DNA of 64,000 nucleotides from Thiobacillaceae bacterium (GTDB lineage Bacteria; Pseudomonadota; Gammaproteobacteria; Burkholderiales; Thiobacillaceae), in assembly GCA_025458005.1 (NCBI GenBank), contig JALOTG010000001.1, positions 10,521 to 74,520 on the forward strand, in the 5' to 3' direction. The notes under the pieces are model-generated. The model worked only from the letters and a program-made list of their open reading frames with translations, made no database searches and had not been told where the DNA came from. Positions 7,506 to 63,892 of the stretch are shown here, one piece after another (positions within the stretch are counted from its first letter, which is position 1; every line of letters starts with the position of its first letter). A program made the translations under genes and the position numbers.

Positions 7506-8603
7506 TCAGGCCTCCAGCAGGCCGCGCACCACCTGATTGAAGGGCGCGATCCATTCGGCGGCGAACTGTTGCTCGGCGGCGTTCACCTCGGCCGCCGCGC
7601 GCAGCATGGAGCGGCTCTGGCCGCGGTGGGTCTGCTTCAGGGTGACCGCCTCGAAGGCGTCGACGATGGCCATCAGCTTGGCGCCCGGGCAGATCGCGTC
7701 GCCCGCGAGGGCGCGCGGATAGCCCTGGCCGCTGGGCATCTCGTGGTGCTGGGCGACGATGCGCGCCGCCTCGTCCCAGCCGCTCATGCGCTCCAGCAGG
7801 CCGGCGGCGTAGGCCGGGTGGCGGCGCAGCTCGGCCAGGTCGGCGGGGCTCAGCCGGCCAGGCTTCAGCCAGACCGGCTCGGCCAGGAACATCATGCCCA
7901 CGTCGTGCATGTAGACCGCCGCCTCCAGCTGCAGGGGGTCGACCGGCCGGCCGGCCACCTCGTTGATGGAACGGGCCAGGTGCAGCACGCGGGCGGTGCG
8001 CCCCTGGAACAGCGGCGAGCGCTGCTCCAGCTGCAGGGCCAGCCCGCTGAAGAAGGTCAGGTCGGCGCCGCGGCTGGCCGGGGTCGGCGCCGCCGGCGCC
8101 TCCCGCCCGGCCTGGGCGGGCCGGAAGCCGGACACCCGCTCGATCATCCGCGCGGCGGCGTCCTCCACCGCCTCGGCGCGGGCCTCGGCCATCGCCCGCA
8201 GCTCCTCCAGCAGGACGGGCAGGCGCAGGCCGACCACCGGCTCCCGGTCGTAATGGGCCTGCGCGGCCCGCTCCAGGCGGTCCAGCGCCAGCAGCATGGC
8301 CTCGGCAAGCATGGCCGTGAAGCGCAGCCGCCCCTCGCGCACCCGCATCAGCAGGGTCTCCAGCTGGTGCGCCACCTCCACGCCGAAGGGGTAGCGGCAC
8401 AGGGCGGCGTCGCCCTTCAGGTTGTGGAAGGCGCGGAACAGGCCGGCCACCAGCTCCAGGTCGTTCGGCGCGGCGCGCAGCATGCCGACGTAGCGTTCGA
8501 TGCGCGGCGCGCGCTCCTCCAGCTCGTCCAGATAGTCCCGGAACAGCTCCCGGTCCAGGGTCCGGATCGCGTCTGCCCGTCCTTCATCCGCTCCCATCGA
8601 CAC
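7506..8603 (-). CDS. Hpt-domain / HD-GYP-domain protein (putative c-di-GMP phosphodiesterase)
   Basis: The N-terminus has an Hpt-like motif (FRAFHNLKGDAALC). The C-terminus has HD (YMHDVGM) and HHE...GQGYP motifs typical of HD-GYP. Confidence 0.8.
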   Translation of the reverse strand: MSMGADEGRADAIRTLDRELFRDYLDELEERAPRIERYVGMLRAAPNDLELVAGLFRAFHNLKGDAALCRYPFGVEVAHQLETLLMRVREGRLRFTAMLAEAMLLALDRLERAAQAHYDREPVVGLRLPVLLEELRAMAEARAEAVEDAAARMIERVSGFRPAQAGREAPAAPTPASRGADLTFFSGLALQLEQRSPLFQGRTARVLHLARSINEVAGRPVDPLQLEAAVYMHDVGMMFLAEPVWLKPGRLSPADLAELRRHPAYAAGLLERMSGWDEAARIVAQHHEMPSGQGYPRALAGDAICPGAKLMAIVDAFEAVTLKQTHRGQSRSMLRAAAEVNAAEQQFAAEWIAPFNQVVRGLLEA

Positions 8604-8816
8604 TCCTCGCCGCCTCGCTCGCCCGCCCCGCGGGCAACGGGGTGGATGCTACGCCAGATGCGGCGCGGAGGGCAGCTCGGCGATGGCGCGACGCGCCCCG
8701 CGCAAGACATCCGCCGCCCACGTACTACAGTGACATCTGTGCAACCCACGCGTGCGAACGGGCCCGGGCGGGTGCGCGCCGGGCCCGGGCCACGCGGAAA
8801 ACGAAGGAGGACGACG

Positions 8817-9248
8817 ATGCCCACGCGCAGAGACCACGACCACCTCGGCAGCGGCAAGTTCAGGATCGAGATCGAGGGCGTCACGCAGGGCGCCTTCACC
8901 GCCGTGAGCGGCCTGGAGGCGAGCACCGACGTCATCGCCTATGTGGACGGCGACGACATGCTGGTGCGCAAGCGCCCGGGCCGCACCAGCTACGCCAACA
9001 TCGTCCTCAAGCGCGGCTACGTGAATACCGACGAGCTGTGGAACTGGTACAGGCTGGTCATGGACGGCCAGGTGGAACGCCGGTCCGGCTCCATCATCGT
9101 GCTGGACGAGACGCTGAAGGAGATCCTGCGCTACAACTTCTTCGAGGCCTGGCCCTGCCGCTGGAAGAGCTTCGCCCTGGACGCCAGCACCGCCGACACC
9201 CTGGTGGAGGAGCTGGAGATCGTCGTCGAGAAGATCGAGCGGGCCTGA
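8817..9248 (+). CDS. Phage/eCIS-type tail tube protein (T4 gp19 / Afp1-like; 'conserved hypothetical phage tail region protein' family)
   Basis: 143 aa. FRIEIEGVTQGAFTAVSGLEASTDVIAYVDG...RPGRTSYANIVLKRGYVNTDELWNWY...ERRSGSIIVLDE...FFEAWPCRWK matches the family pattern almost position for position. A strong ribosome-binding site (AAGGAGG) lies upstream. Confidence 0.85.
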   Translation: MPTRRDHDHLGSGKFRIEIEGVTQGAFTAVSGLEASTDVIAYVDGDDMLVRKRPGRTSYANIVLKRGYVNTDELWNWYRLVMDGQVERRSGSIIVLDETLKEILRYNFFEAWPCRWKSFALDASTADTLVEELEIVVEKIERA

Positions 9249-9275
9249 TGCCGGCACACCGGGCCGGATGAGCCG

Positions 9276-10184
9276 ATGAAACTCGGCGCGATCGAGACCC
9301 TGTTGCTGCCCGCCGCGCGGCGGGCAGTCGGGCAGCTGGCCAGCGTGCATGCCGGGCCGCCGGTGATCACCCCGGCCACCGGGCTGAAGCCCCAGGTCTT
9401 CCTGCACGCCGCGCGCTACGAGGACCTGGGCGGCGTCACCGCCGACGGCGCCCGGGTCGCACGCCGGCCGCTCAGGCTCCCCGCCAATCTCGAGGGCTAC
9501 GCCGTGGAGCGGCCGGCCCGCCTCGTCGTCGAGGCGACCTGCTTCGGCCCGACCCACGAACTGCTCGGGCGCCTGTGCGCCGAGCTGACGCCCGACCTGC
9601 TGCTGGGCCTGGAGACCCTGCCCGACCCGGTCCTCGCCGTCCTGTCCAACGACAGCGTCCGCCTGCAGTTCGCCGACTTCGCCGCCGTGCTGCGGAGCGC
9701 GGAGACCCACTGGCGGCGGGAGGGGGATGCGGCCTACTACGTCGCCCGGCTCGTCTTCCATCTGGACGGCTTCCTGCACGTGCGCCTCACCCGGCGCGGC
9801 GGCCTCGCCCCACGCCCGGCCGTCGCGCCGAGGCTGAGCATCGCCCACGACCCGGAAGGCGCCGACCTGCCCGCCGAGCACGTCCTGCTCAGCAACGACA
9901 CCGCCGAGCCGATGCCGCTGGCCGGCTGGGTGCTCCAGGACGCCGCCCGCCGGCCGCACCGCTATGTCTTCCCCGACTTCACCCTCGCCCCCGGCGCCTC
10001 GGTGCGGCTGTGGACCCGGCAGGGCCGGGACGACGCTGAAAACCTGCACTGGGGCCGCCGGCAGGCGGTGTGGAACAACACCGGCGACACGGCCGTGCTG
10101 CTGGACGGCAACGGCTTCGAGGTGGCGCGGGTGGGTTACGCGCCGAATGGGGCACGCCGCAAGAAGGGGAGGCCGGAGGAGTAG
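9276..10184 (+). CDS. Hypothetical protein with a C-terminal lamin tail domain (LTD). The function of the N-terminal ~190 aa is unknown; it may be tail-terminator (DUF4255/Pvc16)-like.
   Basis: The C-terminus (EHVLLSNDTAEPMPLAGWVLQDAARRPHRYVFPDFTLAPGASVRLWTRQG...AVWNNTGDTAVLLDGNGFEVARV) fits the LTD pattern. The gene starts 27 nt after the tail tube gene. Confidence 0.7.
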   Translation: MKLGAIETLLLPAARRAVGQLASVHAGPPVITPATGLKPQVFLHAARYEDLGGVTADGARVARRPLRLPANLEGYAVERPARLVVEATCFGPTHELLGRLCAELTPDLLLGLETLPDPVLAVLSNDSVRLQFADFAAVLRSAETHWRREGDAAYYVARLVFHLDGFLHVRLTRRGGLAPRPAVAPRLSIAHDPEGADLPAEHVLLSNDTAEPMPLAGWVLQDAARRPHRYVFPDFTLAPGASVRLWTRQGRDDAENLHWGRRQAVWNNTGDTAVLLDGNGFEVARVGYAPNGARRKKGRPEE

Positions 10185-10219: not shown

Positions 10220-10255
10220 AAAAAAAGCCGACACGACCACGTGTCGGCTTTTTTT
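10220..10255. terminator. Bidirectional rho-independent terminator
   Basis: AAAAAAA-GCCGACACG-ACCA-CGTGTCGGC-TTTTTTT sits between the convergent LTD gene and the PEP-CTERM gene. Confidence 0.75.
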
Positions 10256-11178: not shown

Positions 11179-11302
11179 GCAGCCAAACATGACGGTGATA
11201 TTCACATCAATACAATGAGTTATTGAAACGTTTCACAGTCTGAGCCAGGGCGTCGGCACGCCGTACTGTAAAAAAAATCGACAAGCCGGGCGTTCCCGCC
11301 CC

Positions 11303-14102
11303 TCACCCGCACGCCCCCACCGCCCCGCAGGCGGTGCAGAAATCGCAGCCGTCCTTGCGGATCACCGTGTCGTTGCCGCACTCCTTGCAGCGCGCGCCCT
11401 TCATCGCCGGCAGCGCCTGGGCGGGCTGGTCGGGGGCGGGGGCCTGCAGGATGCCCATCTGCTGGATGGGGTAGCCGTCCTCGGTGAGGATGCCCAGCAT
11501 GGCGTAGCGGTGGATGATCAGCCGCGCCACGTAGGCCACCGTCGAGGGCCAGGTCTGGCTCTTCTCGGAGCCCGGCAGCTTGGCCATGAAGTCGCCGAGG
11601 GGTTCGGGGTAGTCGAGCAGCTTCCTCAGCTTCATGCCGATCCAGGCCGGGTCCATCACCCGCATGTCCAGCGACAGCAGCTTGCACAGGCCGTCCAGGG
11701 CGCGCGGGTACTCGCCGGACAGCCACACCGAGTAGGGGCGGTTCTGGCCGTCGGGCATGCGGATCTCCTTGAGGCCGAGGACGAAGTCGTCCTCCGAGGC
11801 GGGGTTGAGCACATCCACGGTCCAGGACAGGGTGCCGTCGGTGCCGGTCTTGGGCTCCTTCGGGCTCATCAGCGCGTCGAGCACCGGCGTCGGGCCGGGG
11901 TGCGCCGACGCCGGCGACGATGCTGGGCACCGGCCTGGGCTCGCCGTCGGGCGGGAAGGGGATGGAGCAGGCGTCGTCGCCGCGCGTCTTCGCCAGGCTG
12001 TCCAGCTTGAGCCTGAGCCAGGCGCGATCGTTGGCGCGCATGTCCATGGACAGGCTCTTGGCCAGCGCGCCCAGGCCGCGCGGCTGCTCGGCGCCGTTGA
12101 CCCACACCTCGAACGGAAACACCCGGCCCTCGCTCTCGACGTGGCCGACGAACAGGGCGAAGCTGCCCTGCGGGTACTCGATCATGTAGCTCCAGGCCGG
12201 GTTGCCGCCGGGCAGGCGCGGCCGGCCGGGCCACTTGAGGCTCTCCAGCACCGGGGCGGGCAGGTGCTTGATCTCGATGCGGCGGTTGACGTCGGTGGTC
12301 TCGAAGTCCTGCGGCGCGGCCTTCTCCGGCTCGACCGACAGCACGCTGCCGAGCACGGCGTTCGGCCGGTAGGTGGCCAGCCCCTTGAGACCCGCCTTCC
12401 AGGCGGCCAGGTAGAGGTCCTCGAACTCGGTGTAGGGGTAGTCGGCCGGCACGTTGACGGTCTTGGAAATGCTCGAGTCGACATAGGGCATCACCGCCGC
12501 CACCGCGTCCATGTGCGCCTTGGCGGAGATCTCCAGGGCGGTGACGAAGGCCGGCGGCAGGTGCTCCACATCCCCCTCCTGCTCCTTGTACAGACGGTAG
12601 GCGTGGTCCTCCACCTGGTATTCCTTGAAGCCGCCGTCGGCCTGCCGCTTCTTGCGCGTGTAGGTCCAGGAGAAGGGCGGCTCGATGCCGTTGCTGGCGT
12701 TGTCGGCGAAGGCGAGCGAGATGGTGCCGGTGGGGGCGATGGACAGCAGGTGCGAGTTGCGGATGCCGTGCTGGCGGATCTGCGCCTTGATCTCGGCGGG
12801 CAGGCGCGAGGCGAAGCTGCCGCCGGCCAGGTAGAGGTCGGCGTTGAACAGCGGGAAGGCGCCGCGCTCCTTGGCCAGGTCCACCGAAGCCAGGTAGGCG
12901 CTGTCGCGCATGAACTCGGCGATGCGGCTGGAGAAGGCCAGGGCCGCCGACGTGTCGTAGCGCAGCCCGAGCATGACCAGGGTGTCGCCCAGGCCGGTGA
13001 AGCCCAGCCCGACGCGGCGCTTGGACTGCGCCTCGGCGTGCTGCTTATCGAGCGGCCAGGCGGTCAGTTCCAGGACGTTGTCCAGCATGCGCACCGACAC
13101 CGGCACCACCTTGCCGAGCGCCTCGAAATCGAACTCGGCCTCGTTCGTGAAGGCGGATCTCACGAAGCGGGTCAGGTTGATCGAGCCCAGGCAGCAGCAG
13201 CCGTAGGGCGGCAGCGGCTGCTCGGCGCAGGGGTTGGTGGCCTCGATGGTCTCGCAGTAATACAGGTTGTTGTCCTTGTTGATGCGGTCCAGGAACAGCA
13301 CGCCGGGCTCGGCGTGGTCGTAGGTGGACTGCATGATCTGCTCCCACAGGTCGCGCGCCCGGATCTTGCGATAGACCCACAGGCCGTCGGCGCGCTGGTA
13401 GGCGCCCTGGGCCATCTGCTCGTCGCCGGGCCGGGCGCGGTGCACCAGCTCCGCCTCGCCGTCCGCCTCCACCGCCGCCATGAAGGCGTCGGTCACCGCC
13501 ACGGAGATGTTGAAGTTCCTCAGGTCGCCCTCGTCCTTGGCATGGATGAAGGCCTCCACGTCCGGGTGATCGCAGCGCAGCACGCCCATCTGCGCGCCGC
13601 GCCGGCTGCCGGCGGATTCCACCGTCTCGCAGGAGCGGTCGAACACGCGCATGTAGGACACCGGCCCGCTCGCCTTGGAGTGGGTGCCCTTCACCAGGGA
13701 TCCCTTGGGACGGATGCTGGAGAAGTCGTAGCCGACGCCGCCGCCGCGGCGCATGGTCTCGGCCGCCTCCTCCAGGGCGACGTAGATGCCCGGCCGGCCG
13801 TCGACCTCGCCCGAGATGGCGTCGCCCACCGGCTGCACGAAGCAGTTGATCAGGGTCGCCTGCAGGTCGGTGCCGGCGGCCGAGTTGATGCGCCCGGCCG
13901 GGATGAAGCCGGCCTCCATGGCATCGAAGAAGCGCTTTTCCCAGTGCGCCCGCAGCCGCTTGTCCTCCACCCCGGCCAGGGCCTGGGCCACCCGGCGTCG
14001 CACGTCCAGGGCGGTCTGTTCATTGCCCTTGGCGTATTTCTCGATGAGCACCTCGGTGGAAATGTGCTGCTCGGCCAGTTCGGGAAAAAGCATGTCCTGC
14101 AT
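11303..14102 (-). CDS. nrdJ: Class II (adenosylcobalamin-dependent) ribonucleotide reductase NrdJ. The reading frame is interrupted near 11,900: the N-terminal ~734 codons are in one frame and the C-terminal 193 codons (11303..11884) are in another.
   Basis: N-terminal part: [25 protein letters not shown]...[22 protein letters not shown]. The C-terminal piece ends with a CxxC...CxxC zinc ribbon ([24 protein letters not shown]). The 960-aa track ORF continues out of frame into Arg/Pro-rich nonsense. Confidence 0.85.
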
Positions 14103-27056: not shown

Positions 27057-28508
<1,452 letters not shown>

Positions 28509-28520
28509 GGGAGTCGGGAC

Positions 28521-29138
28521 ATGGGCCACGCACAGCCGCACGCGGAACACTACACAGTCGCCGACTACCTGACCTGGCCGGACGATGTCCGCTGCGAGCT
28601 GATCCACGGCGTGGTCTACGACATGTCGCCGGCGCCGGTGATCGAGCATCAGGTGCTGGTTGGCAAGCTGCACCTGACCCTGGCCAGCTGCGTCGACAAA
28701 AACGGAGGGGGGGGCGGTTCGGGCTGCGCCATGCTGTTGTCCCCCGTGGATGTGGTGCTGGCCGCAGACACGGTGGTCCAGCCCGATCTGATCGTGGTCT
28801 GCGACCCGGCCAAGCTTGCCAACGGCAAGAATGTTCAGGGCGCCCCGGACTTCGTGCTGGAGGTGCTCTCCCCCGCCACCGCCGCCAAGGACAAGCGCGA
28901 GAAGCGCGCCCTGTACGAATCGGCCGGGGTGCGCGAATACCTGATCGTCGACCCCATCGGCCGCTACGCGGAATTGCACACCCTGGGCGCGGACGGCCGC
29001 TATCCCGCCCCAGCCGTGCTGGCCGCCGAGGATGCGCTCCGCCTGGCCGTCGCCCCGGAGCTGTCCCTCACCCTACACGAACTGTTCGACTGGCCGCTGC
29101 CCCAGGCCGTCAGACAACCGCTCGCACGCTATGGATAA
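28521..29138 (+). CDS. Uma2-family (DUF820) PD-(D/E)xK-like endonuclease
   Basis: [29 protein letters not shown]...[10 protein letters not shown]...[37 protein letters not shown] matches the Uma2 family pattern. It is inserted between gatA and gatB. Confidence 0.75.
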
Positions 29139-29142
29139 CGCC

Positions 29143-30603
29143 ATGCAATGGGAAACCGTCATCGGGCTAGAGGTGCACACCCAGCTCACCACCCGATCCA
29201 AGATCTTTTCCGGGGCATCGACAGAATTCGGCGCCGCGCCCAACACCCAGGCCTGCGCGGTGGACCTCGCCCTGCCGGGGGTGCTGCCGGTATTGAACAA
29301 GGGGGCGGTGGAACGCGCCATCCGCTTCGGCCTGGCGATCGGCGCCCGGCTCAACCGCGTCAACGTGTTCGCGCGCAAGAACTACTTCTACCCCGACCTC
29401 CCCAAGGGCTACCAGATCAGCCAGTTCGAGCTGCCCATCGTCGAGGCGGGCGAGCTGCCGATCCAGGTCGGCGAGGGCGACAAAGCGGTGACCAAGGTCA
29501 TCCGCATCACGCGCGCCCATCTGGAGGAGGATGCCGGCAAGAGCCTGCACGAGGACTTCCACGGCGAGGATGGGAAGCCCCTCAGCGGCATCGATCTGAA
29601 CCGCGCCGGCACGCCGCTCCTGGAGATCGTCTCCGAGCCGGACATGAGAAGCGCCAAGGAGGCGGTGGCCTACGCCCGGGCGCTGCACACCCTGGTCACC
29701 TGGATCGGCATCTGCGACGGCAACATGCAGGAGGGCAGCTTCCGCGTCGACGCCAACGTCTCGGTGCGGCCCAAGGGCTCGGACAAGTTCGGCACCCGCC
29801 GCGAGATCAAGAACCTCAACTCCTTCCGCTTCCTGGAGCAGGCCATCGAGTACGAGGCGCGCTGGCAGATCGAGCGGATCGAGGATGGCCACGAGATCGT
29901 GCAGGCCACCGTGCTGTTCGACCCGGACACCGGCGAGACGCGCATGATGCGCACCAAGGAGGAGGCGCACGACTACCGTTATTTCCCCGATCCGGACCTG
30001 TTGCCGGTGAAGCTGGACGAGCCCTGGATCGAGCAGGTGCGCGCCGCCCTGCCGGAGCTGCCGCAGCAGAAGCAGGCCCGCTACCAGCGCGACTACGGCC
30101 TGTCAGCCTACGATGCCGTCACCCTGACCGCCTCGCGCGAGATGGCCGATTATTTCGAGGCTACCCTGGCCGCCGCGGGGGTGCCGGCCAAGCTGGCCGC
30201 CAACTGGGTGATGGGCGACCTGGCCGCCGCCCTCAACAAGGAGGGCCTGGCGATCGGGCAGGACCGCATCCCGCCCGCCCGGCTGGCGGGGCTGCTCAAG
30301 CGCGTCGACGACAGCACCCTGTCCAGCAAGCTGGCCAAGGAGGTTTTCGCCGCCATGTGGGCGGGCGAAGGCGAGGCCGACGCCATCATCGAGGCAAAGG
30401 GTCTCAGGCAGATGTCCGACACGGGGGAGATCGAGCGCATCGTCGACGAGGTGCTGGCGGCCCACCCGAAGTCCGTCGAGGAATTCCGCGCCGGCAAGGA
30501 CAAGGCATTCAATGCCCTGGTCGGCCAGGTGATGAAGGCCACCCGCGGCAAGGCCAACCCGCAGCAGGTCAACGAACTGCTGAAGAAGAAGCTGGCCGGC
30601 TGA
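29143..30603 (+). CDS. gatB: Asp/Glu-tRNA amidotransferase subunit B
   Basis: [24 protein letters not shown]... An alternative ATG at 29131 would overlap the Uma2 stop codon. Confidence 0.9.
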
Positions 30604-34557: not shown

Positions 34558-34788
34558 ATGGCACAGGAGTCGCTCATGCTGGCCGTACGTCTACCCGATG
34601 ACGTGGAGAAACGCGTCGAGGCCCTTGCCCGCCAGACGGGCCGAACCAAGAGCTTCTACGTGCGCGAGGCCCTGATCCAATACCTGGACGACCTGGAAGA
34701 CTACTACCTGGCCGAAGCGCGTCGGAAACAGCCCCTGTCCCCCATACCCCTCGAAGACATAGAGCGCGAGCTTGGCCTGGCGGATTGA
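34558..34788 (+). CDS. relB: Ribbon-helix-helix (CopG/RelB-type) antitoxin
   Basis: LAVRLPDDVEKRVEALARQTGRTKSFYVREALIQYLDDLEDYYLAE. The stop overlaps the toxin start. An alternative start lies at 34576. Confidence 0.75.
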   Translation: MAQESLMLAVRLPDDVEKRVEALARQTGRTKSFYVREALIQYLDDLEDYYLAEARRKQPLSPIPLEDIERELGLAD

Positions 34789-35041
34789 AGCCGATCCGCG
34801 CGCGCTGGATGAGTTGAGGCGGCTTGACAAGCCGGTCCAGCTGCGCCTCGTCAACGTGCTGCGGGAGCGCATCGCGCTCCTGGCCGACCCGCGCAGCCTG
34901 GCCCAGGCGCTGCGCGGCGAGGAACTGGGCCGTTACTGGAAATATCGCATCGGCGACTATCGGCTTGTCTGTGATATCCGTGACGAGGTCATCACCATCC
35001 TGGTCCTGCGCATAGGCCACCGTCGCGAGGTGTATCGGTGA
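34772..35041 (+). CDS. relE: RelE/StbE-family mRNA interferase toxin
   Basis: 89 aa with a TTG start. WKYRIGDYRLVCDIRDEVITILVLRIGHRREVY is the typical RelE/ParE C-terminal core. Confidence 0.8.
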   Translation: MAWRIEADPRALDELRRLDKPVQLRLVNVLRERIALLADPRSLAQALRGEELGRYWKYRIGDYRLVCDIRDEVITILVLRIGHRREVYR

Positions 35042-52793: not shown

Positions 52794-55259
<2,466 letters not shown>

Positions 55260-55352
55260 TCACGTGGAACAAAAGTCGGCGGCGAGGATGCCGGGCGGGG
55301 AAGAGGCCCGGGGTCAAGCCCCGGGCTGCTGCGTGCTTCCCCTGCGGATCGG

Positions 55353-56459
55353 TCAGATGCGCATCGGCATCACGACATAACGGAAATTATCCTCGCCGGG
55401 CACGGTGATCAGCATGGAACTGGTGGCGTCGCCGAAGGAGCAGAGCACGGATTCGCAATCCAGGTTGTTCAGCACGTCCTGCAGGTACTGGACGTTGAAG
55501 CCAATGTCCAGGGGCTCCTGGTTGTAATCGATGTCGAGCTCCTCCTGGGCCTCTTCCTGCTCGTTGTTGCTGCAGGCCAGGCGCAGGCTGCCGGCGGTCA
55601 GGGCCAGCCGCACACCGCGGTACTTCTCGTTGGTCAGGATGGCGGCGCGCGCCAGGGCCTGGTTGAGCCGTTGCCGGGAAATGGCAACGTGCTTTTCGTA
55701 ACCGCTGGGCACCACGCGCTGGTAGTCGGGAAACTTGCCGTCCACCACCTTGCTGCGCAGTTCGAAGGCGGGGTGACGAAACATGACTTGGCCGCTGGAC
55801 AACTGGACATGCAGCGGCTCGTCGCTGTCGTCCAGCAGCTTGATCAGTTCCTGCACCGTCTTGCGCGGCAGGATCAGGTCCATGCCCTGCTCGACAGGAT
55901 CGTCCAGAGCGGTGGCGTCCAGGGCCAGGCGATGACCGTCGGTGGCGGCGGCAAGCAGGCGTCCCTGCTGCAGCGACAGCAGCATGCCGTTGAGATAGTA
56001 GCGAATGTCCTGCACGGCCATGGCGTATTGCACCCGGGCGAGCAGGCGGCGCAGGCGTCCCTGGGGCAGGGCGATGCTTACCCCCTCGCCTTCCGCGATC
56101 TGTAGGCGTGGAAAGTCGCGCGCCGGGAGCGTCTGCAGGCTGAAGCGGCTCTTGCCGGCCTTCACCTTGAGCAGATCTCCGTCGAGTTCGAGTTGGATTC
56201 CCTCGCCTTCGGGCAGGGCGCGACAGATATCCAGCAGTTTTTTCGCCGACACGGTGAAGGCGGCCTGGGCCTGGGTTTCCTCACCCATCCAGGTCGTGAT
56301 CTGCAGTTCCAGGTCGGTGGCGACCAGGGCGGTGCGGTTCGCTTCCACCTCGATCAGCACGTTGGAGAGTATGGGCAGAGTGTGCTTGCGCTCCACGACG
56401 CCGACGGCAGCCTGCAGCGGCTTGAGCAGGGTGTCCTTGCGGGTTTTGAGAACGAGCAT
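55353..56459 (-). CDS. dnaN: DNA polymerase III beta sliding clamp
   Basis: MLVLKTRKDTLLKPLQAAVGVVERKHTLPILSNVLIEVEANRTALVATDLE...VVMPMRI. The start is the in-frame ATG at 56459. Confidence 0.95.
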   Translation of the reverse strand: MLVLKTRKDTLLKPLQAAVGVVERKHTLPILSNVLIEVEANRTALVATDLELQITTWMGEETQAQAAFTVSAKKLLDICRALPEGEGIQLELDGDLLKVKAGKSRFSLQTLPARDFPRLQIAEGEGVSIALPQGRLRRLLARVQYAMAVQDIRYYLNGMLLSLQQGRLLAAATDGHRLALDATALDDPVEQGMDLILPRKTVQELIKLLDDSDEPLHVQLSSGQVMFRHPAFELRSKVVDGKFPDYQRVVPSGYEKHVAISRQRLNQALARAAILTNEKYRGVRLALTAGSLRLACSNNEQEEAQEELDIDYNQEPLDIGFNVQYLQDVLNNLDCESVLCSFGDATSSMLITVPGEDNFRYVVMPMRI

Positions 56460-56666
56460 ATATATCTTCCTGTTGATGTTGTTTAGTCCCGGCTCAAATC
56501 CGGGATAACGCCAATAATCCCTTTTCAATCATCAGATTGTCCAGCCCGAAAGGCTGTGGAAAAGTGGCCGGGAAGCCTGTTGATTATTGTGGACAAGTCT
56601 AGTCCGAGCGCATATGGCCGATGCTTATCCCCATTTCATACCGGAGTTGTCCAAGACTTATCCCGT
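56460..56666. promoter_or_regulatory. Cluster of DnaA-box-like 9-mers in the dnaA-dnaN intergenic region (candidate oriC segment or DnaA-regulated dnaN promoter)
   Basis: Three 8/9 matches to TTATCCACA: TTTTCCACA (complement of 56555..56563), TTGTCCACA (complement of 56588..56596) and TTATCCCCA (56625..56633). At least four 6/9 matches: 56502, 56537, 56647 and 56658. Confidence 0.5.
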
Positions 56667-58031
56667 CAGTACCTGAACCAGCAGATTATGGTCGCGGCGC
56701 AGGGTTAGGTCGCTGTTGCGCAGCTCCTCGATCTTGCGGCAGGCGTGCAGCACCGTGGTGTGATCGCGGCCGCCGAAGGCCTGACCGATCTCCGGCAGGG
56801 ACAGGTCGGTCAGTTCCTTGGCCAGGAACATGGCCATCTGCCGGGGTCGCGCCAGGTTTCTGGTGCGTTTCTTGGAGAACATGTCGGCCACCTTGATCTT
56901 GTAGAAATCGGCCACCGTCTTCTGAATGTTCTCGATGGAGATCTGCCGGTTCTGCACCGCCAGCAGGTCCTTCAGGGCCTCCTTGGCCAGTTCCACGCTG
57001 ATCGGCAGCTTGTGGAAGCGGGCGTAGGCGATGACGCGCTTGAGCGCCCCCTCCAGTTCGCGAACGTTGGAGCGGATCTGCTTGGCGATGAAGAAGGCGG
57101 TGGCCTCGTCCACGCGCTCGCCTTCCTGCCTCGCCTTGTCCAGCAGGATGGCCACGCGCATCTCCAGCTCGGGCGGCTCCAGCATGACGGTGAGCCCCCA
57201 GCTGAAGCGTGATTTCAGCCGTTCCTCGATGCCCTCCATGTCCTTGGGGAATGTGTCGCTGGTGATGATCACCTGCTTGTGGGCCTCGATCAGGCTGTTG
57301 AAGGTGTAGAAGAACTCCTCCTGGGTGCGGTCCTTGTTGGCGAAGAACTGGATGTCGTCGATGAGCAGCACGTCCAGGGAATCATAGCGGCGCTTGAAAT
57401 CCTCGAAAGACTTGGTGCGGATGGCCCGCACCATGTCCGAGAAATAGCGCTCGGCATGGATGTAGCGCACGTTGGCGGCGGGGTCGTACTCCTTGACCTT
57501 GTTGCCGATTGCCTGGATCAGGTGCGTTTTGCCCAGACCGACGCCACCGTAGACGAAGAGGGGGTTGTATCCGGCACCCGGATTGTCCGCCACCTGCAGG
57601 GCGGCCGCCCTGGCCAGATCGTTGGCCTTGCCGCGCACGAAGCTGTCGAAGTTGAACAAGGGGTTCAGGCGGCTGTCTTGCGGGGGCTGTGCCTGACGAG
57701 CCTTGCGCGGCGTCGGCACGGGATCCGCGGGCTCTAGGACGGAGACGGGACTGGCGCTGTCCGGTTCGACGCGCGTGGGCGAGGGCTTTTGGCCCTCCTC
57801 GCCCACGGTCAGCACCACCGGACGCTTCTTCTCGAAGTACTGTTCCGCCAGCAGCTCAATGTCCTGCAGAAACCTGTCCTTGATCCACTGTGCGACGAAG
57901 CGGTTCGGCGCGGTGACTCGCACATGCGACCCTTCCTCCTCGACGCTGAGGGGCTTCAGCCAAGTGTTGAGTTGTTGCGTGTTGACCGTCTGCGCGAAAT
58001 GGGCGAGACAATGGGTCCAGAAACCACTCAT
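56658..58031 (-). CDS. dnaA: Chromosomal replication initiator DnaA
   Basis: MSGFWTHCLAHFAQTV...NPLFVYGGVGLGKTHLIQAIGN...DRTQEEFFYTFNSL...GGRDHTTVLHACRKI. The start is the in-frame ATG at 58031. Confidence 0.95.
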   Translation of the reverse strand: MSGFWTHCLAHFAQTVNTQQLNTWLKPLSVEEEGSHVRVTAPNRFVAQWIKDRFLQDIELLAEQYFEKKRPVVLTVGEEGQKPSPTRVEPDSASPVSVLEPADPVPTPRKARQAQPPQDSRLNPLFNFDSFVRGKANDLARAAALQVADNPGAGYNPLFVYGGVGLGKTHLIQAIGNKVKEYDPAANVRYIHAERYFSDMVRAIRTKSFEDFKRRYDSLDVLLIDDIQFFANKDRTQEEFFYTFNSLIEAHKQVIITSDTFPKDMEGIEERLKSRFSWGLTVMLEPPELEMRVAILLDKARQEGERVDEATAFFIAKQIRSNVRELEGALKRVIAYARFHKLPISVELAKEALKDLLAVQNRQISIENIQKTVADFYKIKVADMFSKKRTRNLARPRQMAMFLAKELTDLSLPEIGQAFGGRDHTTVLHACRKIEELRNSDLTLRRDHNLLVQVLTG

Positions 58032-58184
58032 GGCTAAGCGGGGAGAATTCGAGTCAGGGAAAGCGTTGTAGGGGAGATACGTGTCGATTGTAGCATGCGC
58101 CGGATGACCGGCCAGCAATAGAATTTATTGACAAATTAGTGAGTTACAAGTTTAAATTTCGTGTTTTAAAGACGAGGTCTGAAA

Positions 58185-58319
58185 ATGAAACGCACCTACC
58201 AGCCCTCCGTGGTCCGTCGCAAGCGCACCCACGGTTTTCGTGCCCGCATGAAGACCAAGAGCGGCCGGGCCATCATCAACGCTCGCCGCGCCAAGGGCCG
58301 CAAGCGTCTGGCCGTTTGA
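58185..58319 (+). CDS. rpmH: 50S ribosomal protein L34
   Basis: Not in the ORF track because it is only 44 aa. It translates to [51 protein letters not shown] / 17-nt spacer / TTTAAA promoter-like sequence lies upstream (58128..58156). Confidence 0.92.
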
Positions 58320-58328
58320 CGCCGGGGG

Positions 58329-58727
58329 TTGACTCCCGATACGGGCCGGCCTCTTCGTCTGGGCCGGGACAGGAAGCTGCGAACAACGGATGACTTCTCA
58401 TCCGTTTTTCGTTTCAAACGGGTCATGCGTGGCGCCTGCGTCGACATCTATGCGCGTCCCAATGGGCTGCCTCACGCCCGACTGGGGATGATCGTCTCGC
58501 GTCGGGTGGCGAGACACGCGGTGGCGCGCAACCTCTACAAGCGCCTGATGCGCGAGATGTTCAGGCTGCGGCAGCATGAACTGGCGTCCTTGGACCTGGT
58601 GGCGCGCCTCAAGGCGGCCTGCCCCAGGGATCGGTTCAGGGAAGAATTCAACCGCTTGCTTGCCCTCTGCCAGGCAAGCCAATGGGGGCGGCCGGACGCG
58701 CCGACCCCGGATGCGAGCACGTCATAG
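58329..58727 (+). CDS. rnpA: Ribonuclease P protein component
   Basis: RLGRDRKLRTTDDFSSVFRF...ARLGMIVSRRVARHAVARNLYKRLMRE (the RNR motif region). It lies directly after rpmH. The start codon is uncertain (TTG at 58329). Confidence 0.85.
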   Translation: MTPDTGRPLRLGRDRKLRTTDDFSSVFRFKRVMRGACVDIYARPNGLPHARLGMIVSRRVARHAVARNLYKRLMREMFRLRQHELASLDLVARLKAACPRDRFREEFNRLLALCQASQWGRPDAPTPDASTS

Positions 58728-58730
58728 AAC

Positions 58731-60395
58731 ATGGACACGCAACGCCTGATCGCCTTCGTCGTTTTCTCCTTCTCCCTCCTGTTGCTCTGGGAGGCCTGGC
58801 AGGACTACAACCGTCCTAAGACCGAGACGCACGCCATCCAGTCCGGGCAGCAAGCTGGGGCGCCGGCGCCCGCCGACACGGCCGCCGCCTTGCCCAAGCC
58901 GGGCGCGGGGCTCAGGCCGGCCTCGCCCCAGACCGGCAAGCTGGATCAGGGCGAGCGGCTGGTGGTGAAGACCGACGTCCTCACCGCGGTCATCGATACT
59001 CATGGCGGCGACATCCGTCAGCTCACCCTGGACGGCTATCGGCAGAACGAGGACAAGACCAAGCCCTATCAGCTGTTCGAGGAACGCGGCGGCCGCAACT
59101 ACCTGGCCCAGTCGGGCTTCATCGGCCAGGGACTGCCTTCGCACAAGACGCTCTATGAGCTGCCTTCAGGCGACTACACGCTCAAGCCTGGCCAGGACGA
59201 GATTCGCCTGAGCATGAAGGCGGTCTCCGAGAACGCTCAGGTGGTCAAGACCTACGTCTTCCGCCGCGGCAGCTATGTGGTGCAGGTCCGGCACGAGGTG
59301 ACCAATACCGGCCAGAGCCCGCTCGAGGGCTATCCCTATTACCAGCTAGTGCGCCACGGCGAGGCCCCCGAAGGCGAATCCGCCTTCGTCCACACCTTCA
59401 CCGGCCCGGTCGTGTACACCGAGGTGGGCAAATACCAGAAGGTCAGTTTCGAGGACATCGCCAAGGGCAAGCAGGAACACGTCAAGGAAGCCCAGGACGG
59501 CTGGATCGGACTGGCCCAGCATCACTTCGTCGCCGTCTGGCTGACCCGTGACCCGCAGGATACTTCCAAGCGCGAGTTCTACACGCGAGACCTGGGCAAC
59601 GGCGAGTACGCTGCCGGCATGATCCTGCCCGCCGTGCAGGTTGCGCCCGGCGAGAGCCGGGAGATCGGCGTGCGACTCTATGCCGGTCCGCAGGAACTGG
59701 AAAAGATCCAGTCGCTCGCCCCCGGCATGGAATACGTGGTCGACTACGGCTGGTTGCACGTGCTCGCCTATCCCCTGTTCTGGCTGCTCAACCAGCTGAA
59801 CAAGCTGGTCGACAACTGGGGGGTTGCCATCATCCTGCTGACGGTGATCATCAAGCTGGTCTTCTATCCCCTGTCGGCCGCCAGCTACAAGTCCATGGCG
59901 CACATGCGCAAGCTGGCCCCGCGCCTGCAGCAGCTCAAGGAAACCTACGGCGACGACCGGCAGAAGCTGCACGAGAACATGATGAAGATCTACCAGGAGG
60001 AGAAGATCAATCCGCTCGGCGGCTGCCTGCCCATCCTGGTGCAGATCCCCGTGTTCATCGCCCTGTACTGGGTGCTGCTCGGCGCCGTGGAGCTCCGGCA
60101 GGCGCCGTTCGCCTTCTGGATCACCGACCTCTCGGCCAAGGATCCCTACTACATCCTGCCCTTGGTCATGGCCGCCACCATGTTCATCCAGATGAAGCTG
60201 AGCCCGACGCCGCCCGACCCGGTGCAGGCCAAGGTGATGATGGCGATGCCCATCGTCTTCTCGGTGTTCTTCTTCTTCTTCCCCGCCGGCCTGGTGCTCT
60301 ACTGGCTGGTCAACAACGTCCTGTCCATCCTGCAGCAGTGGCGCATCACTCAGGTGATCGAGCGCGCCGGCCATGGCAAGGCCGCCAAGAAATGA
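58731..60395 (+). CDS. yidC: Membrane protein insertase YidC
   Basis: [24 protein letters not shown]...[15 protein letters not shown]...[23 protein letters not shown]. Confidence 0.95.
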
Positions 60396-61713
60396 CATCA
60401 TCGCCGCCGTCGCCACCGCCCCGGGGCGGGGCGGCATCGGCGTCGTGCGGGTCTCCGGGCCGGACCTGAGGGAGATCGTCGCGGGGGTCCTGGGCAGGCC
60501 CCTGGAACCGCGCCGGGCGACCCACGCCCGCTTCCTGGACGAGAGCGGTGAGACCCTGGACGAGGGCATTGCCCTGTACTTTCGCGCGCCGCATTCCTTC
60601 ACCGGCGAGGAGGTGCTCGAATTGCAGGGCCACGGCGGTCCCCAGGTGCTGGCCATGATCCTGCAGCGTTGCGTGGCACTGGGCGCGCGGCCGGCGGAGC
60701 CCGGCGAGTTCAGCCGGCGCGCCTTCCTCAACGACAAGCTCGACCTCGCCCAGGCCGAGGCCATCGCCGACCTGATCGACGCGCAGAGCCAGGCGGCGGC
60801 ACGCTCCGCGGTGCGGTCCCTGACCGGCGAGCTCTCGCGCGAAGTGCACGACTTGGTGGAGGCCCTGATCCGCCTGCGCATGCTGGTGGAGGCCACCCTG
60901 GACTTTCCCGAGGAGGAGATCGACTTCCTGCGCCAGGCCGATGCCTTCGGCCAACTCGACGGCATCGACGCCAGACTCGCGGCGCTGCGGGCCCGGGCCC
61001 ACCAAGGCGCGCTGTTGCGGGAAGGCCTGACGGTGGTACTGATCGGCCAGCCCAACGTCGGCAAGTCCTCGCTGCTCAACCGCCTGGCCGGCTACGAGGC
61101 GGCCATCGTCACGGAGATCGCCGGCACCACCCGCGATACGGTCCGCGAGGCGATCCAGATCGAGGGCGTGCCGATCCACGTGGTCGACACCGCCGGCCTG
61201 CGCGACACCGACGACCCGGTGGAGGCCCAGGGCATTGCCCGCACCTGGGCGGCGCTGGACAGGGCGGACGTCGCGCTGCTGCTGGTGGATGCCGCCCATG
61301 GTGTCGGTGACCGGGAGGCCGGCATCCTGGAGCGCCTGCCCGATATTCCCTTGCTGACGGTGCACAACAAGATCGATCTGACCGGGGAAGCGCCGCGCCT
61401 GTCAGAGGACGGTCGGGAAATCTGGCTGTCCGCCAGGGAAGGCCACGGCATCGAACTGCTGACCCGACGCCTGCTGGATCTGGCCGGCTGGCAGGCGGCC
61501 GGGGAAGGCGGCTTCATGGCGCGCGGTCGCCACCTCGCCGCGCTGCGCGAGGCGGCAGCGCACCTCGGGCTCGCACGCGAACAGGCCGGCCAGCTGGAAC
61601 TGTTCGCCGAGGAGCTGCGCCTGGCTCAGGAGGCCCTGTCGAACATCACCGGAGAATTCACATCCGACGACCTCCTTGGGGTCATCTTCAGCCAGTTTTG
61701 CATCGGAAAGTAA
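60373..61713 (+). CDS. mnmE: tRNA uridine-5-carboxymethylaminomethyl modification GTPase MnmE (TrmE)
   Basis: [22 protein letters not shown]..., the G-domain motifs [12 protein letters not shown] and DTAGLR, and the C-terminal FCIGK. Confidence 0.9.
61696..61713 (+). other. Candidate attL core (last 18 bp of mnmE) for the downstream integrative element
   Basis: TTTTGCATCGGAAAGTAA. The element's int gene starts 345 bp downstream. The 3' end of mnmE/trmE is a known attachment site for SGI1-family and related islands. The exact crossover is not determinable without attR. Confidence 0.3.
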
Positions 61714-61826: not shown

Positions 61827-62046
61827 TGTTCCCAGATTTGTTCCCAAGTCCTGATGAAGTGTTCCCAAGTAGGGTCCGGGAAGTGTTCCCAAGCCTGCAA
61901 AACGGGCGGCATCTTCGGGATAATTTGGGAACATCCGGCGGGAACGATTCGGCTGTAAGCAAGCATCCATGCTATTTACGGGCATTTGTTCCCAAGTATT
62001 TTGATGTACCCGAGTCGGCGGACCGATTTTGGGAACATGGGAACAA
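61827..62046. repeat. Array of at least 8 copies of a TGTTCCCAAG motif (5 direct, 3-4 inverted) upstream of int
   Basis: Direct copies at 61827, 61839, 61860, 61884 and 61987. Inverted TTTGGGAACAT at 61924 and 62028. Inverted GGGAACAA at 62039, and a partial GGGAACG at 61940. Confidence 0.85.
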
Positions 62047-62057
62047 AGGGGGTGAAC

Positions 62058-63398: not shown

Positions 63399-63417
63399 GC
63401 GGTGTTCCATGCAATGC

Positions 63418-63446
63418 TTGACAATGCCTTAAAGGTTTTATATCTT
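63418..63446 (+). promoter_or_regulatory. Putative sigma-70 promoter upstream of alpA
   Basis: TTGACA at 63418..63423, followed 15-17 nt later by TATATC/TATCTT. Confidence 0.3.
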
Positions 63447-63652
63447 AGAAACACATTCGCGGCTGATGCGTTAATTCGGCACTCGGAACACGCCCGAGTC
63501 TAAACAAAGGGTGATCCACCGCATTGTGCGGCTGGTGTTCGCGGATGATGCCAAGCGTTATGCATCGTAAATGGCGCAAGGGTAAACCTTGCATTGTTTA
63601 TGCTGCCCGCTTGGTTCTCTTCCGAGCGGTGCATGAATAAGGAGTTAGTTTC

Positions 63653-63880: not shown

Positions 63881-63892
63881 GGAGTGGCGGCA

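What the first reader, a model, noticed from the sequence alone, without database searches (positions are those of the whole stretch)
8817..10184. Orphan contractile-injection-type tail-tube gene coupled to a lamin-tail-domain protein, with no sheath, baseplate or spike genes nearby
The 143-aa product of 8817..9248 matches the T4 gp19 / Afp1-type inner-tube family very clearly (FRIEIEGV..SGLE..RPGRTSYANIVLKRG..ELWNWY..GSIIVLDE..AWPCRWK). These genes normally sit inside 15-20-gene eCIS/PVC/phage-tail loci.

Here the only partner is a 302-aa protein that starts 27 nt downstream. Its C-terminus is a lamin tail (LTD, Ig-like) domain. Its N-terminal half is loosely reminiscent of tail-terminator (Pvc16/DUF4255-like) proteins (PQVFLHAARYEDL..., RLVVEATCFGPTHELLGRLCAEL), but that second point is only my pattern impression.

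The pair is bracketed by housekeeping-type genes and ends at a strong bidirectional terminator. It is transcribed divergently from an Hpt/HD-GYP signalling gene and is followed by PEP-CTERM exoprotein genes. A two-gene tube-plus-cap/LTD module could be a minimal self-assembling tube or a surface/extracellular structure, not a remnant. I do not know of a described function for such a pair.
Basis: partly seen in the sequence, partly recalled or inferred. Interest (0 to 1): 0.7.

Follow-up and report, generated by a model that had tools for sequence, protein, structure and literature searches.

The report
Orphan tail-tube plus tail-cap gene pair
A bacterium carries just two parts of a phage-tail-like injection machine, the inner-tube protein and a cap-like protein, as a tight gene pair; the same pair recurs in at least five bacterial phyla among unrelated housekeeping genes, so it is a conserved stand-alone module whose job is unknown.

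Summary

**The two genes**
- 8817-9248 encodes an intact 143-aa CIS-type inner-tube protein (PF06841, E 1.8e-35).
- 9276-10184 encodes a 302-aa protein. Residues 191-288 are a lamin-tail domain. AlphaFold2 (pLDDT 93.8) plus Foldseek assign residues 1-176 to the tail-terminator (cap) fold: T4 gp15, lambda gpU, T5 p142, Pvc16.

**What is conserved**
- The conserved unit is tube plus terminator-like domain. The LTD is a betaproteobacterial add-on.
- Other lineages carry 170-230-aa partners, mostly with polybasic tails.
- The pair, with 0-41 nt between the genes, occurs in Beta- and Gammaproteobacteria, Nitrospirota, Chloroflexota and Planctomycetota, always with different housekeeping flanks.
- No third gene recurs.

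**What is absent**
- No sheath, baseplate or spike gene lies in the 64-kb window or within ±10 kb of 12 other pair loci.
- The partner is absent from the phage, plasmid and viral-contig collections searched.

**Relationships**
- The partner family is small (59 clusters among 1.84 billion representatives).
- Pair-linked tubes sit outside the clade of tubes from true CIS loci, yet keep their conserved residues.

**Reading**
- Best reading: a domesticated, non-contractile tube-cap assembly.
- Function and assembly are inferred, not shown.
- A CIS elsewhere in the same genomes could not be excluded directly.

The parts
8817..9248 (+). Gene 1: 143-aa CIS-type inner tail-tube protein (Cis1/Afp1/Pvc1/gp19 family), acidic (pI 5.1)
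   Evidence: PF06841 E 1.8e-35 and TIGR02241 113 bits. PDB sequence hits to Alg1, All3324, Pvc1 and Afp1. It is 55-63% identical to tubes inside real CIS loci and shares 59 near-invariant columns with them. pI.
9276..10184 (+). Gene 2: 302-aa partner protein (terminator-like domain + LTD + short basic tail)
   Evidence: ORF. Full-length homologues are listed. The gene lies directly downstream of a tube gene in at least 17 distinct loci.
9276..9803 (+). Partner aa 1-176: tail-terminator (cap)-fold domain, the conserved core of the partner family
   Evidence: AF2 pLDDT 93.8, pTM 0.86. The top 40 Foldseek PDB hits are all tail terminators (T4 gp15 5e-7; Pa193/E217 gateway TM 0.53-0.57; lambda gpU TMt 0.65; T5 p142; Pvc16 cap; S. 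coelicolor CIS cap). Among the top 50 BFVD hits, nearly all named ones are terminator, tail-completion or sheath-stabilizer proteins; two carry unrelated names (FHA-domain protein, tape-measure chaperone) and most have no name. hhalign against Pvc16_N proteins of real CIS loci gives 59% probability, E 9e-5, 153 colinear columns.
9846..10139 (+). Partner aa 191-288: lamin-tail (Ig-like) domain, a lineage-specific addition
   Evidence: PF00932 E 1.7e-18. Lamin Ig-fold hits by sequence and by structure. The domain is absent from the short-form partners.
10140..10181 (+). Partner aa 289-302: short disordered basic tail (ARRKKGRPEE)
   Evidence: pLDDT below 50 at aa 292-302. Net charge +2.8. Most family members end in K/R-rich tails of +6 to +20 net charge.
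8803..8810 (+). Ribosome-binding site GAAGGAGG, 6 nt before the tube ATG
   Evidence: Read from the sequence. Similar GGAG-type sites precede most orthologous tube genes examined, though not all, e.g. L026 and L063.
8704..8731 (+). Possible weak sigma-70-type promoter (AAGACA, 16 nt, TACAGT); low confidence
   Evidence: Read from the sequence. TACAGT or TAGAGT sits at a similar distance in L012, L009 and L070. It is below the threshold of the promoter scan, which reported none.
10220..10255 (.). Bidirectional intrinsic-terminator-like hairpin that ends the pair (16-bp perfect stem flanked by A7 and T7)
   Evidence: I5.

Best explanation
This is a domesticated two-gene 'tube + cap' module derived from a contractile injection system. 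It appears to work on its own, without sheath, baseplate, spike or tape measure.

Shown:
- The two genes are co-oriented with a gap of 0-41 nt.
- They are co-inherited across at least five phyla.
- They are the only genes that recur at these loci.
- Gene 1 is an intact CIS-type inner-tube protein that keeps the residues conserved in tubes of real CIS loci.
- The N-terminal domain of gene 2 is predicted with high confidence to have the tail-terminator fold.

Inferred from what these families do in phage tails and CIS:
- The tube protein forms hexameric rings that stack.
- The partner forms a hexamer that docks on the free end of the stack and stops growth.
- With no initiator, ruler or sheath, the product is then a short, non-contractile capped tube, or a ring-cap dodecamer, in the cytoplasm.
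- The variable C-terminal appendages of the cap would project from the particle. These are an LTD plus basic tail in Betaproteobacteria, long polybasic K/R/P/A tails in most other members, and nothing in a few.
- I guess they either tether the particle to a polyanionic partner (nucleic acid, anionic membrane) or plug the acidic tube.

The cellular purpose is not known.
For: Identity of the parts:
- Tube.
- Terminator-fold partner: with a weak profile-profile link to Pvc16_N.

Module conservation:
- The tube lies immediately upstream of the partner in the window, Rubrivivax, Gallionella, Nitrospirales, Chloroflexota, Brocadiaceae, a gammaproteobacterial MAG, a Paraglaciecola isolate and others. 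The flanks are unrelated housekeeping genes each time.
- Only these two families recur among 12 such loci.
- Tube and partner distance matrices correlate (r = 0.78, Mantel p = 2e-4).

Autonomy:
- HMMs for sheath, Pvc16_N, LysM-tube initiator, GPD hub and others, built from 42 real CIS loci, find nothing in the 64-kb window or within ±10 kb of 12 pair loci.
- The window is housekeeping DNA near dnaA.
- None of the 7 pair-bearing species genomes shows a second tube of this clade in the genome scan, although the scan pattern YNFFEAWP is conserved in CIS-locus tubes.
- Pair-linked tubes fall outside the large clade of CIS-locus tubes and their recent solitary copies.
- In Geller et al. 2021, Supplementary Data 6, no genome of Gallionella (0/38), Polaromonas (0/10), Thiobacillus (0/9), Nitrospira (0/9), Paraglaciecola (0/8) or Rubrivivax (0/4) had an eCIS.

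Not a phage or plasmid gene.

Intactness: 59 near-invariant columns are shared with CIS tubes, with only 3 conservative group-specific changes.

Appendages: polybasic tails on the partner and an acidic tube.
Against: - No experiment and no multimer model shows that the two proteins bind each other or assemble.
- In phages and CIS, tube proteins normally need a baseplate hub or initiator to polymerise, and none is present.
- The whole genomes of the carriers could not be searched, so a CIS of another tube clade elsewhere cannot be excluded. Some relatives of Rubrivivax (Roseateles, Rhizobacter, Mitsuaria) do carry eCIS.
- One Polaromonas MAG has the partner without an adjacent tube.
- The tube keeps essentially all residues conserved in sheath-bearing systems. 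This would also fit continued use inside a full machine.
- Pvc16_N/DUF4255 membership is not met by HMM.
Confidence: 0.5

Rival explanations
1. These are spare or variant parts for a contractile injection system (or prophage tail) encoded elsewhere in the same genome. On this reading the pair supplies an alternative tube subunit and an alternative, decorated cap to a full machine. This would be analogous to orphan hcp/vgrG islands of type VI secretion systems.
For: - The tube is 55-63% identical to tubes of true CIS loci and keeps their conserved residues.
- 31 of 80 related tube loci are solitary tube genes. They are nearly identical to CIS-locus tubes of the same lineages, so trans-encoded tube copies do exist.
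- Whole genomes of the carriers could not be scanned.
Against: - Pair-linked tubes form separate deep branches that co-diverge with the partner. They do not sit next to CIS tubes.
- No second tube of this clade was found in the 7 pair-bearing species genomes.
- The genera concerned had no eCIS in a survey that identified eCIS loci in 1,249 genomes.
- No CIS gene lies in the 64-kb window or in 12 x 20 kb of other pair loci.
Confidence: 0.2
2. This is an anti-phage or tail-assembly-interference module. On this reading a host-encoded tube and terminator co-assemble with, or prematurely cap, the tails of infecting phages, or act as decoys for phage proteins.
For: - Both proteins are tail-assembly components, and a terminator by nature stops tube growth (fold).
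- The cassette sits at variable chromosomal positions, as expected of horizontally moved accessory genes.
- A ParE toxin-antitoxin pair lies next to it in the Rubrivivax locus.
Against: - PADLOC gives no hit apart from a weak LTD-only match.
- The flanks are housekeeping genes, not defence islands.
- The tube matches no GenBank phage at E <= 1e-5, and the partner matches none at E <= 0.01. There is therefore no obvious phage target with compatible interfaces.
- A decoy would not obviously need its own tube gene.
Confidence: 0.12
3. This is a ring chaperone plus client. The tube protein would act like Hcp, forming a hexameric ring that holds and stabilises the partner protein. The partner's basic tail or LTD would then be the actual effector part.
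For: - The tube is acidic and the partner tails are strongly basic.
- The two genes are tightly coupled and co-evolve.
- The analogy rests on established knowledge of Hcp-effector pairs.
Against: - The conserved part of the partner is a terminator-fold domain, which in all known cases docks on the end of a tube ring rather than inside it.
- Several partners have no tail at all.
- No toxin or enzyme domain is present.
Confidence: 0.08
4. This is a decaying remnant of a lost CIS or prophage tail locus with no present function.
For: The pair is isolated among housekeeping genes.
Against: - Both ORFs are intact in every locus examined.
- The tube is 55-93% identical and the partner N-domain 23-85% identical across phyla, with invariant motifs.
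- The same two genes, and only these, are retained in unrelated genomic contexts.
- The tube has a strong RBS.
Confidence: 0.03

Closest known systems
eCIS / CIS inner tube and cap (Afp1/Pvc1/Cis1 with Afp16/Pvc16/Cis16) of Afp, PVC, AlgoCIS, Anabaena tCIS and Streptomyces CIS
   Same: - The tube belongs to the same family, PF06841, and is most similar to Alg1 and All3324.
- The partner N-domain has the fold of the cap/terminator, including Pvc16 and the S. coelicolor cap among its Foldseek hits.
- In the real CIS loci that hold the closest tubes, Pvc16_N, sheath and tube genes are neighbours.
   Different: - There is no sheath, baseplate, spike, tape measure, LysM-tube initiator or AAA+ ATPase.
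- The gene order is tube then cap.
- The partner does not reach the Pvc16_N HMM.
- The cap carries an LTD or polybasic tails, or nothing.
- The tube scores far below the NCBIfam CIS1/CIS5 equivalog cut-offs.
Tail terminator proteins of non-contractile phage tails (lambda gpU, T5 p142) capping gpV/pb6 tubes
   Same: The arrangement is a single-domain terminator capping a sheath-less tube. Structurally gpU reaches TMt 0.65 and p142 is among the top hits.
   Different: - The tube here is of the contractile (gp19/CIS) type, not a siphovirus tube.
- There is no tape measure, tail tip, head or connector.
- The gene is not in any phage genome searched.
Orphan hcp / hcp-effector islands of type VI secretion systems
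   Same: A tube-family gene lies away from the main machine and is tightly paired with one downstream gene.
   Different: - The tube family is different (Hcp, not PF06841).
- The downstream gene here is a structural cap-fold protein, not an effector.
- No main machine was detectable near the pair or, by indirect evidence, in the carriers.
Bacterial LTD (PF00932) proteins such as the ExeM/NucH extracellular nucleases
   Same: The Ig-like lamin-tail domain scores above the Pfam cut-off. The closest LTDs by sequence include nuclease-linked proteins (P0024 endonuclease G + LTD; SNc+LTD).
   Different: - There is no signal peptide and no hydrolase domain.
- The LTD is fused to a terminator-fold domain.
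- The role of bacterial LTDs is itself unresolved (PMC6085458).

Membership tests
PF06841 / TIGR02241 (T4 gp19-like, CIS inner tube) | Profile HMM score above the curated cut-off over the full domain | tested here: met
   PF06841 122 bits against 28.2, covering profile positions 4-134 of 134. TIGR02241 113 bits against 62.4.
PF06841 / TIGR02241 (T4 gp19-like, CIS inner tube) | Keeps the residues conserved in tubes of demonstrable CIS loci (no disabling substitutions) | tested here: met
   59 near-invariant columns are shared with 41 CIS-locus tubes. Only E34/D, R115/K and A123/G differ between the groups. Sequences are full length with no indels.
NCBIfam CIS1_fam / CIS5_fam equivalogs (CIS inner tube / tube adaptor) | Score above the equivalog cut-off | tested here: not met
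   CIS5_fam 68 bits against 260; CIS1_fam 50 bits against 220.
Pvc16_N / DUF4255 (PF14065), CIS cap / tail terminator | Profile HMM match | tested here: not met
   No Pfam hit in aa 1-190 at E <= 0.1. The same Pfam model does detect the cap of real CIS loci (L062, 69 bits).
Pvc16_N / DUF4255 (PF14065), CIS cap / tail terminator | Remote homology by profile-profile comparison | tested here: inconclusive
   hhalign of the partner family against 34 Pvc16_N proteins: probability 59%, E 9e-5, 153 colinear columns, 12% identity.
Tail terminator fold (gp15 / gpU / p142 / Pvc16 class) | Three-dimensional fold | tested here: met
   AF2 pLDDT 93.8. The top 40 PDB Foldseek hits are all terminators at probability 0.91-1.00, with TM up to 0.57 (query-normalised) and 0.65 (target-normalised). 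Among the top 50 BFVD hits, nearly all named ones are terminator, tail-completion or sheath-stabilizer proteins; two carry unrelated names and most have no name. This rests on a predicted structure, not a solved one.
Tail terminator fold (gp15 / gpU / p142 / Pvc16 class) | Forms a hexamer that binds the last tube ring and stops polymerisation | not testable with these tools
   No multimer prediction or experiment was available. The only supporting facts are adjacency to, and co-divergence with, the tube gene.
Extracellular / cytoplasmic contractile injection system (eCIS, CIS) as a system | Sheath, baseplate (gp6/gp25/gpJ-like), spike/hub, tape measure and AAA+ ATPase genes clustered with the tube | tested here: not met
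   None is present in the 64-kb window or within ±10 kb of 12 other pair loci.
Extracellular / cytoplasmic contractile injection system (eCIS, CIS) as a system | The same components encoded elsewhere in the same genome | not testable with these tools
   Whole genomes could not be fetched. Indirect evidence only: no second same-clade tube in 7 carrier genomes, and no eCIS in those genera in Geller et al. 2021.
LTD (PF00932) | Profile HMM score above the cut-off, and Ig-like fold | tested here: met
   67.4 bits against 34.3. Lamin Ig domains are hit by sequence and by structure, TMt up to 0.75.
Known anti-phage defence systems (PADLOC-DB v2) | Match to a defence-system protein model | tested here: not met
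   The tube gives no hit. The partner gives only a weak LTD-region match to an SNc+LTD candidate (E 2.3e-4).

The most novel reading that the evidence does not exclude
The pair builds an autonomous, non-contractile tube-cap nanostructure: a short capped tube or a 6:6 ring-cap particle. It would have been domesticated from an injection system for a new intracellular role. The cap's interchangeable C-terminal appendages (LTD or long polybasic tails) would bind nucleic acid, anionic membrane or another polyanion. That would be a previously undescribed class of phage-tail-derived cellular structure, spread by horizontal transfer across at least five phyla.
Probability: 0.4. Interest if true: 0.8.

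Novelty: new variant of a known kind. Interest (0 to 1): 0.65.

Why it matters
Phage-tail-derived machines known so far all keep a baseplate or tail-tip complex. This applies to tailocins, eCIS, T6SS and cytoplasmic CIS. A module reduced to tube plus cap, conserved for long enough to co-diverge across phyla, would show that tail parts can be domesticated piecemeal for a function that needs neither contraction nor a baseplate.

The pair would also be a very small self-limiting protein-tube system, of possible use for engineering. One carrier is a cultured isolate (Paraglaciecola sp. MB-3u-78), and the two proteins are small (16 and 19-33 kDa). Direct tests are therefore easy.

If the pair instead serves a distant CIS, it would be the first case of trans-encoded tube/cap variants for such systems.

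Tried and rejected
- **Pfam and NCBIfam on the partner N-terminal half:** no hit, so DUF4255 membership by sequence is not met.
- **Partner profile against PDB sequences:** only lamins were found, no cap protein.
- **Word-indexed homologue search with the N-domain alone:** only 7 hits. The exhaustive HMM search was needed.
- **Search for a third conserved gene:** none found. Only tube, partner and antisense shadow ORFs recur. HD-GYP genes sit next to the pair in 2 contexts only.
- **Cassette-bounding repeats or mobile-element signatures:** none found. The only integrase-type gene seen near a pair locus was a 56-aa rve_3 fragment about 6 kb away in L109.
- **Rfam:** no riboswitch or other RNA family near the pair, only three tRNAs in the window.
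- **Conserved upstream motif:** none found beyond the RBS and a weak -10-like TACAGT/TAGAGT. The promoter scan reports none.
- **Stop-codon read-through fusion:** the two ORFs are in the same frame in the window, separated by TGA plus 9 codons. I rejected this idea because the frame relation is not kept in other loci (coordinates).
- **Viral contigs, GenBank phages and plasmids:** no partner in any; no tube match in phages.
- **Literature:** four searches found no description of an orphan tube + terminator or tube + LTD pair.
- **Strain-level look-up:** the carrier strains are not in the held supplements of Geller et al., and Chen et al. 2019 has no held supplements.
- **Not possible here:** whole-genome scans of the carrier genomes and multimer structure prediction.
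Full report
**1. What is in the sequence**

The window is about 70% G+C.
- At 8817-9248 (+) there is a 143-aa ORF. It is preceded by GAAGGAGG at 8803-8810.
- At 9276-10184 (+), 27 nt downstream, there is a 302-aa ORF.
- A 16-bp perfect hairpin flanked by A7 and T7 at 10220-10255 closes the pair.
- Upstream, on the other strand, lies an Hpt + HD-GYP gene (7506-8603).
- Downstream lie a PEP-CTERM protein, a class II ribonucleotide reductase and a second PEP-CTERM protein.

The organism is a Thiobacillaceae MAG. The tube protein is 100% identical to an NCBI entry of that name, and the window is 99.8% identical to metagenome contigs.

**2. The tube gene**

- It matches PF06841 (E 1.8e-35) and TIGR02241 above their cut-offs. 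It scores far below the NCBIfam CIS1/CIS5 equivalog cut-offs.
- Its best solved relatives are CIS inner tubes: AlgoCIS Alg1, Anabaena tCIS All3324, Pvc1 and Afp1.
- It matches no GenBank phage at E <= 1e-5.
- Close homologues are very numerous and unusually conserved: 685 hits at E < 1e-10, and the top 120 are all 142-190 aa (almost all 143-145) and 61-100% identical, from several phyla.

**3. The partner**

- Pfam finds only the LTD, at aa 191-288.
- An AlphaFold2 model of the whole protein has pLDDT 83.9. A model of aa 1-180 alone has pLDDT 93.8 and pTM 0.86. Both give a two-helix, long-stranded beta-sheet domain.
- Against the PDB, the top 40 Foldseek hits for this domain are exclusively tail terminators. 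They include T4 gp15, the 'gateway' proteins of phages E217 and Pa193 (TM 0.53-0.57), lambda gpU (TMt 0.65), T5 p142, the PVC cap Pvc16 and the S. coelicolor CIS cap.
- Against BFVD, nearly all named hits among the top 50 are terminator, tail-completion or sheath-stabilizer proteins. Two carry unrelated names and most are unnamed.
- A profile of the partner family aligns colinearly with the Pvc16_N proteins of real CIS loci, but only weakly (hhalign 59% probability, E 9e-5).

I therefore treat the domain as having the terminator fold, on a strong but predicted basis. I do not treat it as a demonstrated member of PF14065.

**4. The conserved unit is tube + terminator-like domain, not tube + LTD**

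- Full-length LTD forms occur in Burkholderiales and Nitrosomonadales relatives: Rubrivivax, Piscinibacter, Polaromonas, Gallionella.
- Downstream of the closest tube homologues in other lineages sit 139-206-aa proteins with no Pfam hit (the 139-aa L108 call looks N-terminally truncated). The lineages are Chloroflexota, Nitrospirales, Brocadiaceae, a gammaproteobacterial MAG, a Paraglaciecola isolate and an unassigned JGI metagenome contig. These proteins are clear homologues of aa 1-171 of the window protein: BLASTP E 7e-34 and 3e-24, and HMM scores of 83-225 bits.
- An exhaustive HMM search of 1.84 billion representative proteins finds only 59 clusters. They are of two types, about 170-230 aa and about 290-310 aa. 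The family is small and discrete.
- Most short forms end in long K/R/P/A-rich tails with net charge +6 to +20. A few stop right after the domain. The LTD forms end in a short basic tail. The tube is acidic, pI 5.1.

**5. Gene neighbourhood**

- In at least 17 distinct loci the tube gene lies 0-41 nt upstream of the partner.
- The flanks differ every time. Examples are asparagine synthase with a ParE toxin-antitoxin pair, a TRAP transporter, an ABC-F protein, a P-type ATPase, oxaloacetate decarboxylase and multihaem cytochromes.
- All-against-all clustering of 12 such loci finds no third recurrent family.
- Tube and partner pairwise distances correlate (r = 0.78, Mantel p = 2e-4).
- The single exception is a Polaromonas MAG. 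There the partner follows a LysR gene and no tube lies within the locus.

**6. Relation to real injection systems**

A scan of one genome per species (GTDB r232) with the tube returned 80 loci. They fall into three classes.
- 7 loci carry the pair.
- 42 loci are typical CIS loci. They have Pvc16_N, sheath (PF04984/PF17482), a second tube, a CIS_tube-LysM protein and a GPD hub.
- 31 loci hold solitary tube genes followed by ordinary metabolic genes.

In a neighbour-joining tree, the pair-linked tubes form basal groups outside the large clade that mixes CIS-locus tubes with their nearly identical solitary copies. Pair-linked tubes still share 59 near-invariant columns with CIS tubes. Only three conservative group-specific changes separate them. 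The tube gene is therefore not degraded.

**7. Is a full machine nearby or elsewhere?**

- HMMs built from the real CIS loci find none of these components in the 64-kb window or within ±10 kb of 12 pair loci. The components were sheath, cap, hub, LysM tube and others.
- Pfam annotation shows the window to be housekeeping DNA that ends at gyrB-dnaN-dnaA / yidC-mnmE, which is the origin region.
- Whole genomes could not be fetched, so the genome-wide question is answered only indirectly.
  - None of the 7 pair-bearing species genomes gave a second tube hit. The scan pattern YNFFEAWP is conserved in CIS-locus tubes, and such tubes rank within the listed range.
  - In Geller et al. 2021 (PMC8213781, Supplementary Data 6), no genome of these genera carried an eCIS. 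The genera were Gallionella (38), Polaromonas (10), Thiobacillus (9), Nitrospira (9), Paraglaciecola (8) and Rubrivivax (4).
  - Some related Burkholderiales genera do carry eCIS.
- The partner is absent from IMG/VR contigs, GenBank phages and PLSDB plasmids.

**8. How it most likely works**

Shown: a two-gene operon-like unit under purifying selection, made of an intact CIS-type tube protein and a terminator-fold protein.

Inferred from the established roles of these families (gp19/gp15, gpV/gpU, Pvc1/Pvc16):
- The tube protein forms stacking hexameric rings.
- The partner forms a hexamer that docks on the open end and blocks further growth.
- Without an initiator, ruler or sheath the result is a short, non-contractile capped tube or a ring-cap dodecamer in the cytoplasm. 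Neither protein has a signal peptide.

Speculative: the cap's interchangeable C-terminal appendages tether the particle to a polyanion or plug the acidic tube. The role of bacterial LTDs is unresolved. Membrane targeting or a contribution to DNA degradation have been suggested (PMC6085458).

I put about 0.5 on an autonomous tube-cap assembly. The rivals are:
- spare parts for a distant CIS (0.2);
- interference with phage tail assembly (0.12), with no PADLOC support;
- a ring chaperone plus client (0.08);
- a remnant (0.03), which conservation contradicts.

**9. Novelty**

Four literature searches found no description of such a pair. The components are known kinds. The reduced, conserved two-gene arrangement is not described. 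I rate it a new variant of a known kind, with interest 0.65.

Noticed in passing
window 11887-11906 (within the ribonucleotide reductase gene 11220-14102, - strand); compare L001 4782-4854: The class II ribonucleotide reductase reading frame breaks in the window. Residues 1-732 are in frame -3 and residues 757-950 are in frame -1. At this point 18 nt in the window replace 71 nt of the otherwise 99.8%-identical contig L001, which encodes an intact 950-aa protein. This is either an assembly artefact or a disrupted essential gene.
   Followed up: partly
L046-L099 (31 of the 80 loci), e.g. L065 10001-10432, L083 10001-10432, L048 8344-8769: Many Myxococcota, Actinomycetota and other MAGs carry solitary 143-aa tube genes with no partner and no CIS gene within 10 kb. 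These are followed by ordinary genes (DUF4202, enoyl-CoA hydratase, metallo-beta-lactamase, signal peptidase II). They are nearly identical to tubes of CIS loci in related genomes, and some MAGs hold two such copies.
   Followed up: partly
L017 4406-5329 and 5862-7016; window 7506-8603: In a Polaromonas MAG the LTD-form partner occurs without an adjacent tube gene and next to a response-regulator HD-GYP gene. In the window the pair is next to an Hpt-HD-GYP gene. HD-GYP adjacency occurs in 2 of about 12 contexts. It may be chance, or a hint of c-di-GMP-linked control.
   Followed up: no
L019 12063-14414 (- strand): In the Chloroflexota locus the partner lacks an LTD. A 783-aa protein with an LTD, an SH3_3 domain and a faint tape-measure (TMP_2) hit lies about 1.1 kb downstream on the opposite strand.
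   Followed up: no
window 8761-8796: A GC-rich palindrome (GGCCCGGGCGGGTGCGCGCCGGGCCCGGGCC) lies in the 5' leader of the tube gene, just before the RBS. It forms a strong hairpin in the predicted fold. No counterpart is obvious in the orthologous loci.
   Followed up: partly
window 9246-9278: The tube and partner ORFs are in the same reading frame, separated by one TGA and nine sense codons. This frame relation is not kept in other loci, so programmed read-through is unlikely.
   Followed up: yes
window 28521-29138: A Uma2-family putative restriction endonuclease gene sits between gatA (27057-28508) and gatB (29032-30603), interrupting the usual gatCAB arrangement.
   Followed up: no
window 52794-61713: gyrB, dnaN and dnaA lie on the - strand, then yidC and mnmE on the + strand. 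The chromosomal replication origin region is therefore probably around 58.1-58.7 kb, about 50 kb from the tube-cap pair.
   Followed up: partly
window 62001-64000: G+C drops to 0.57 in the last 2 kb, against about 0.69 for the rest of the window.
   Followed up: no
window 34772-35041: A ParE-family toxin gene is present. A ParE-like toxin-antitoxin pair also lies next to the tube-cap pair in the Rubrivivax loci (L010/L011).
   Followed up: no
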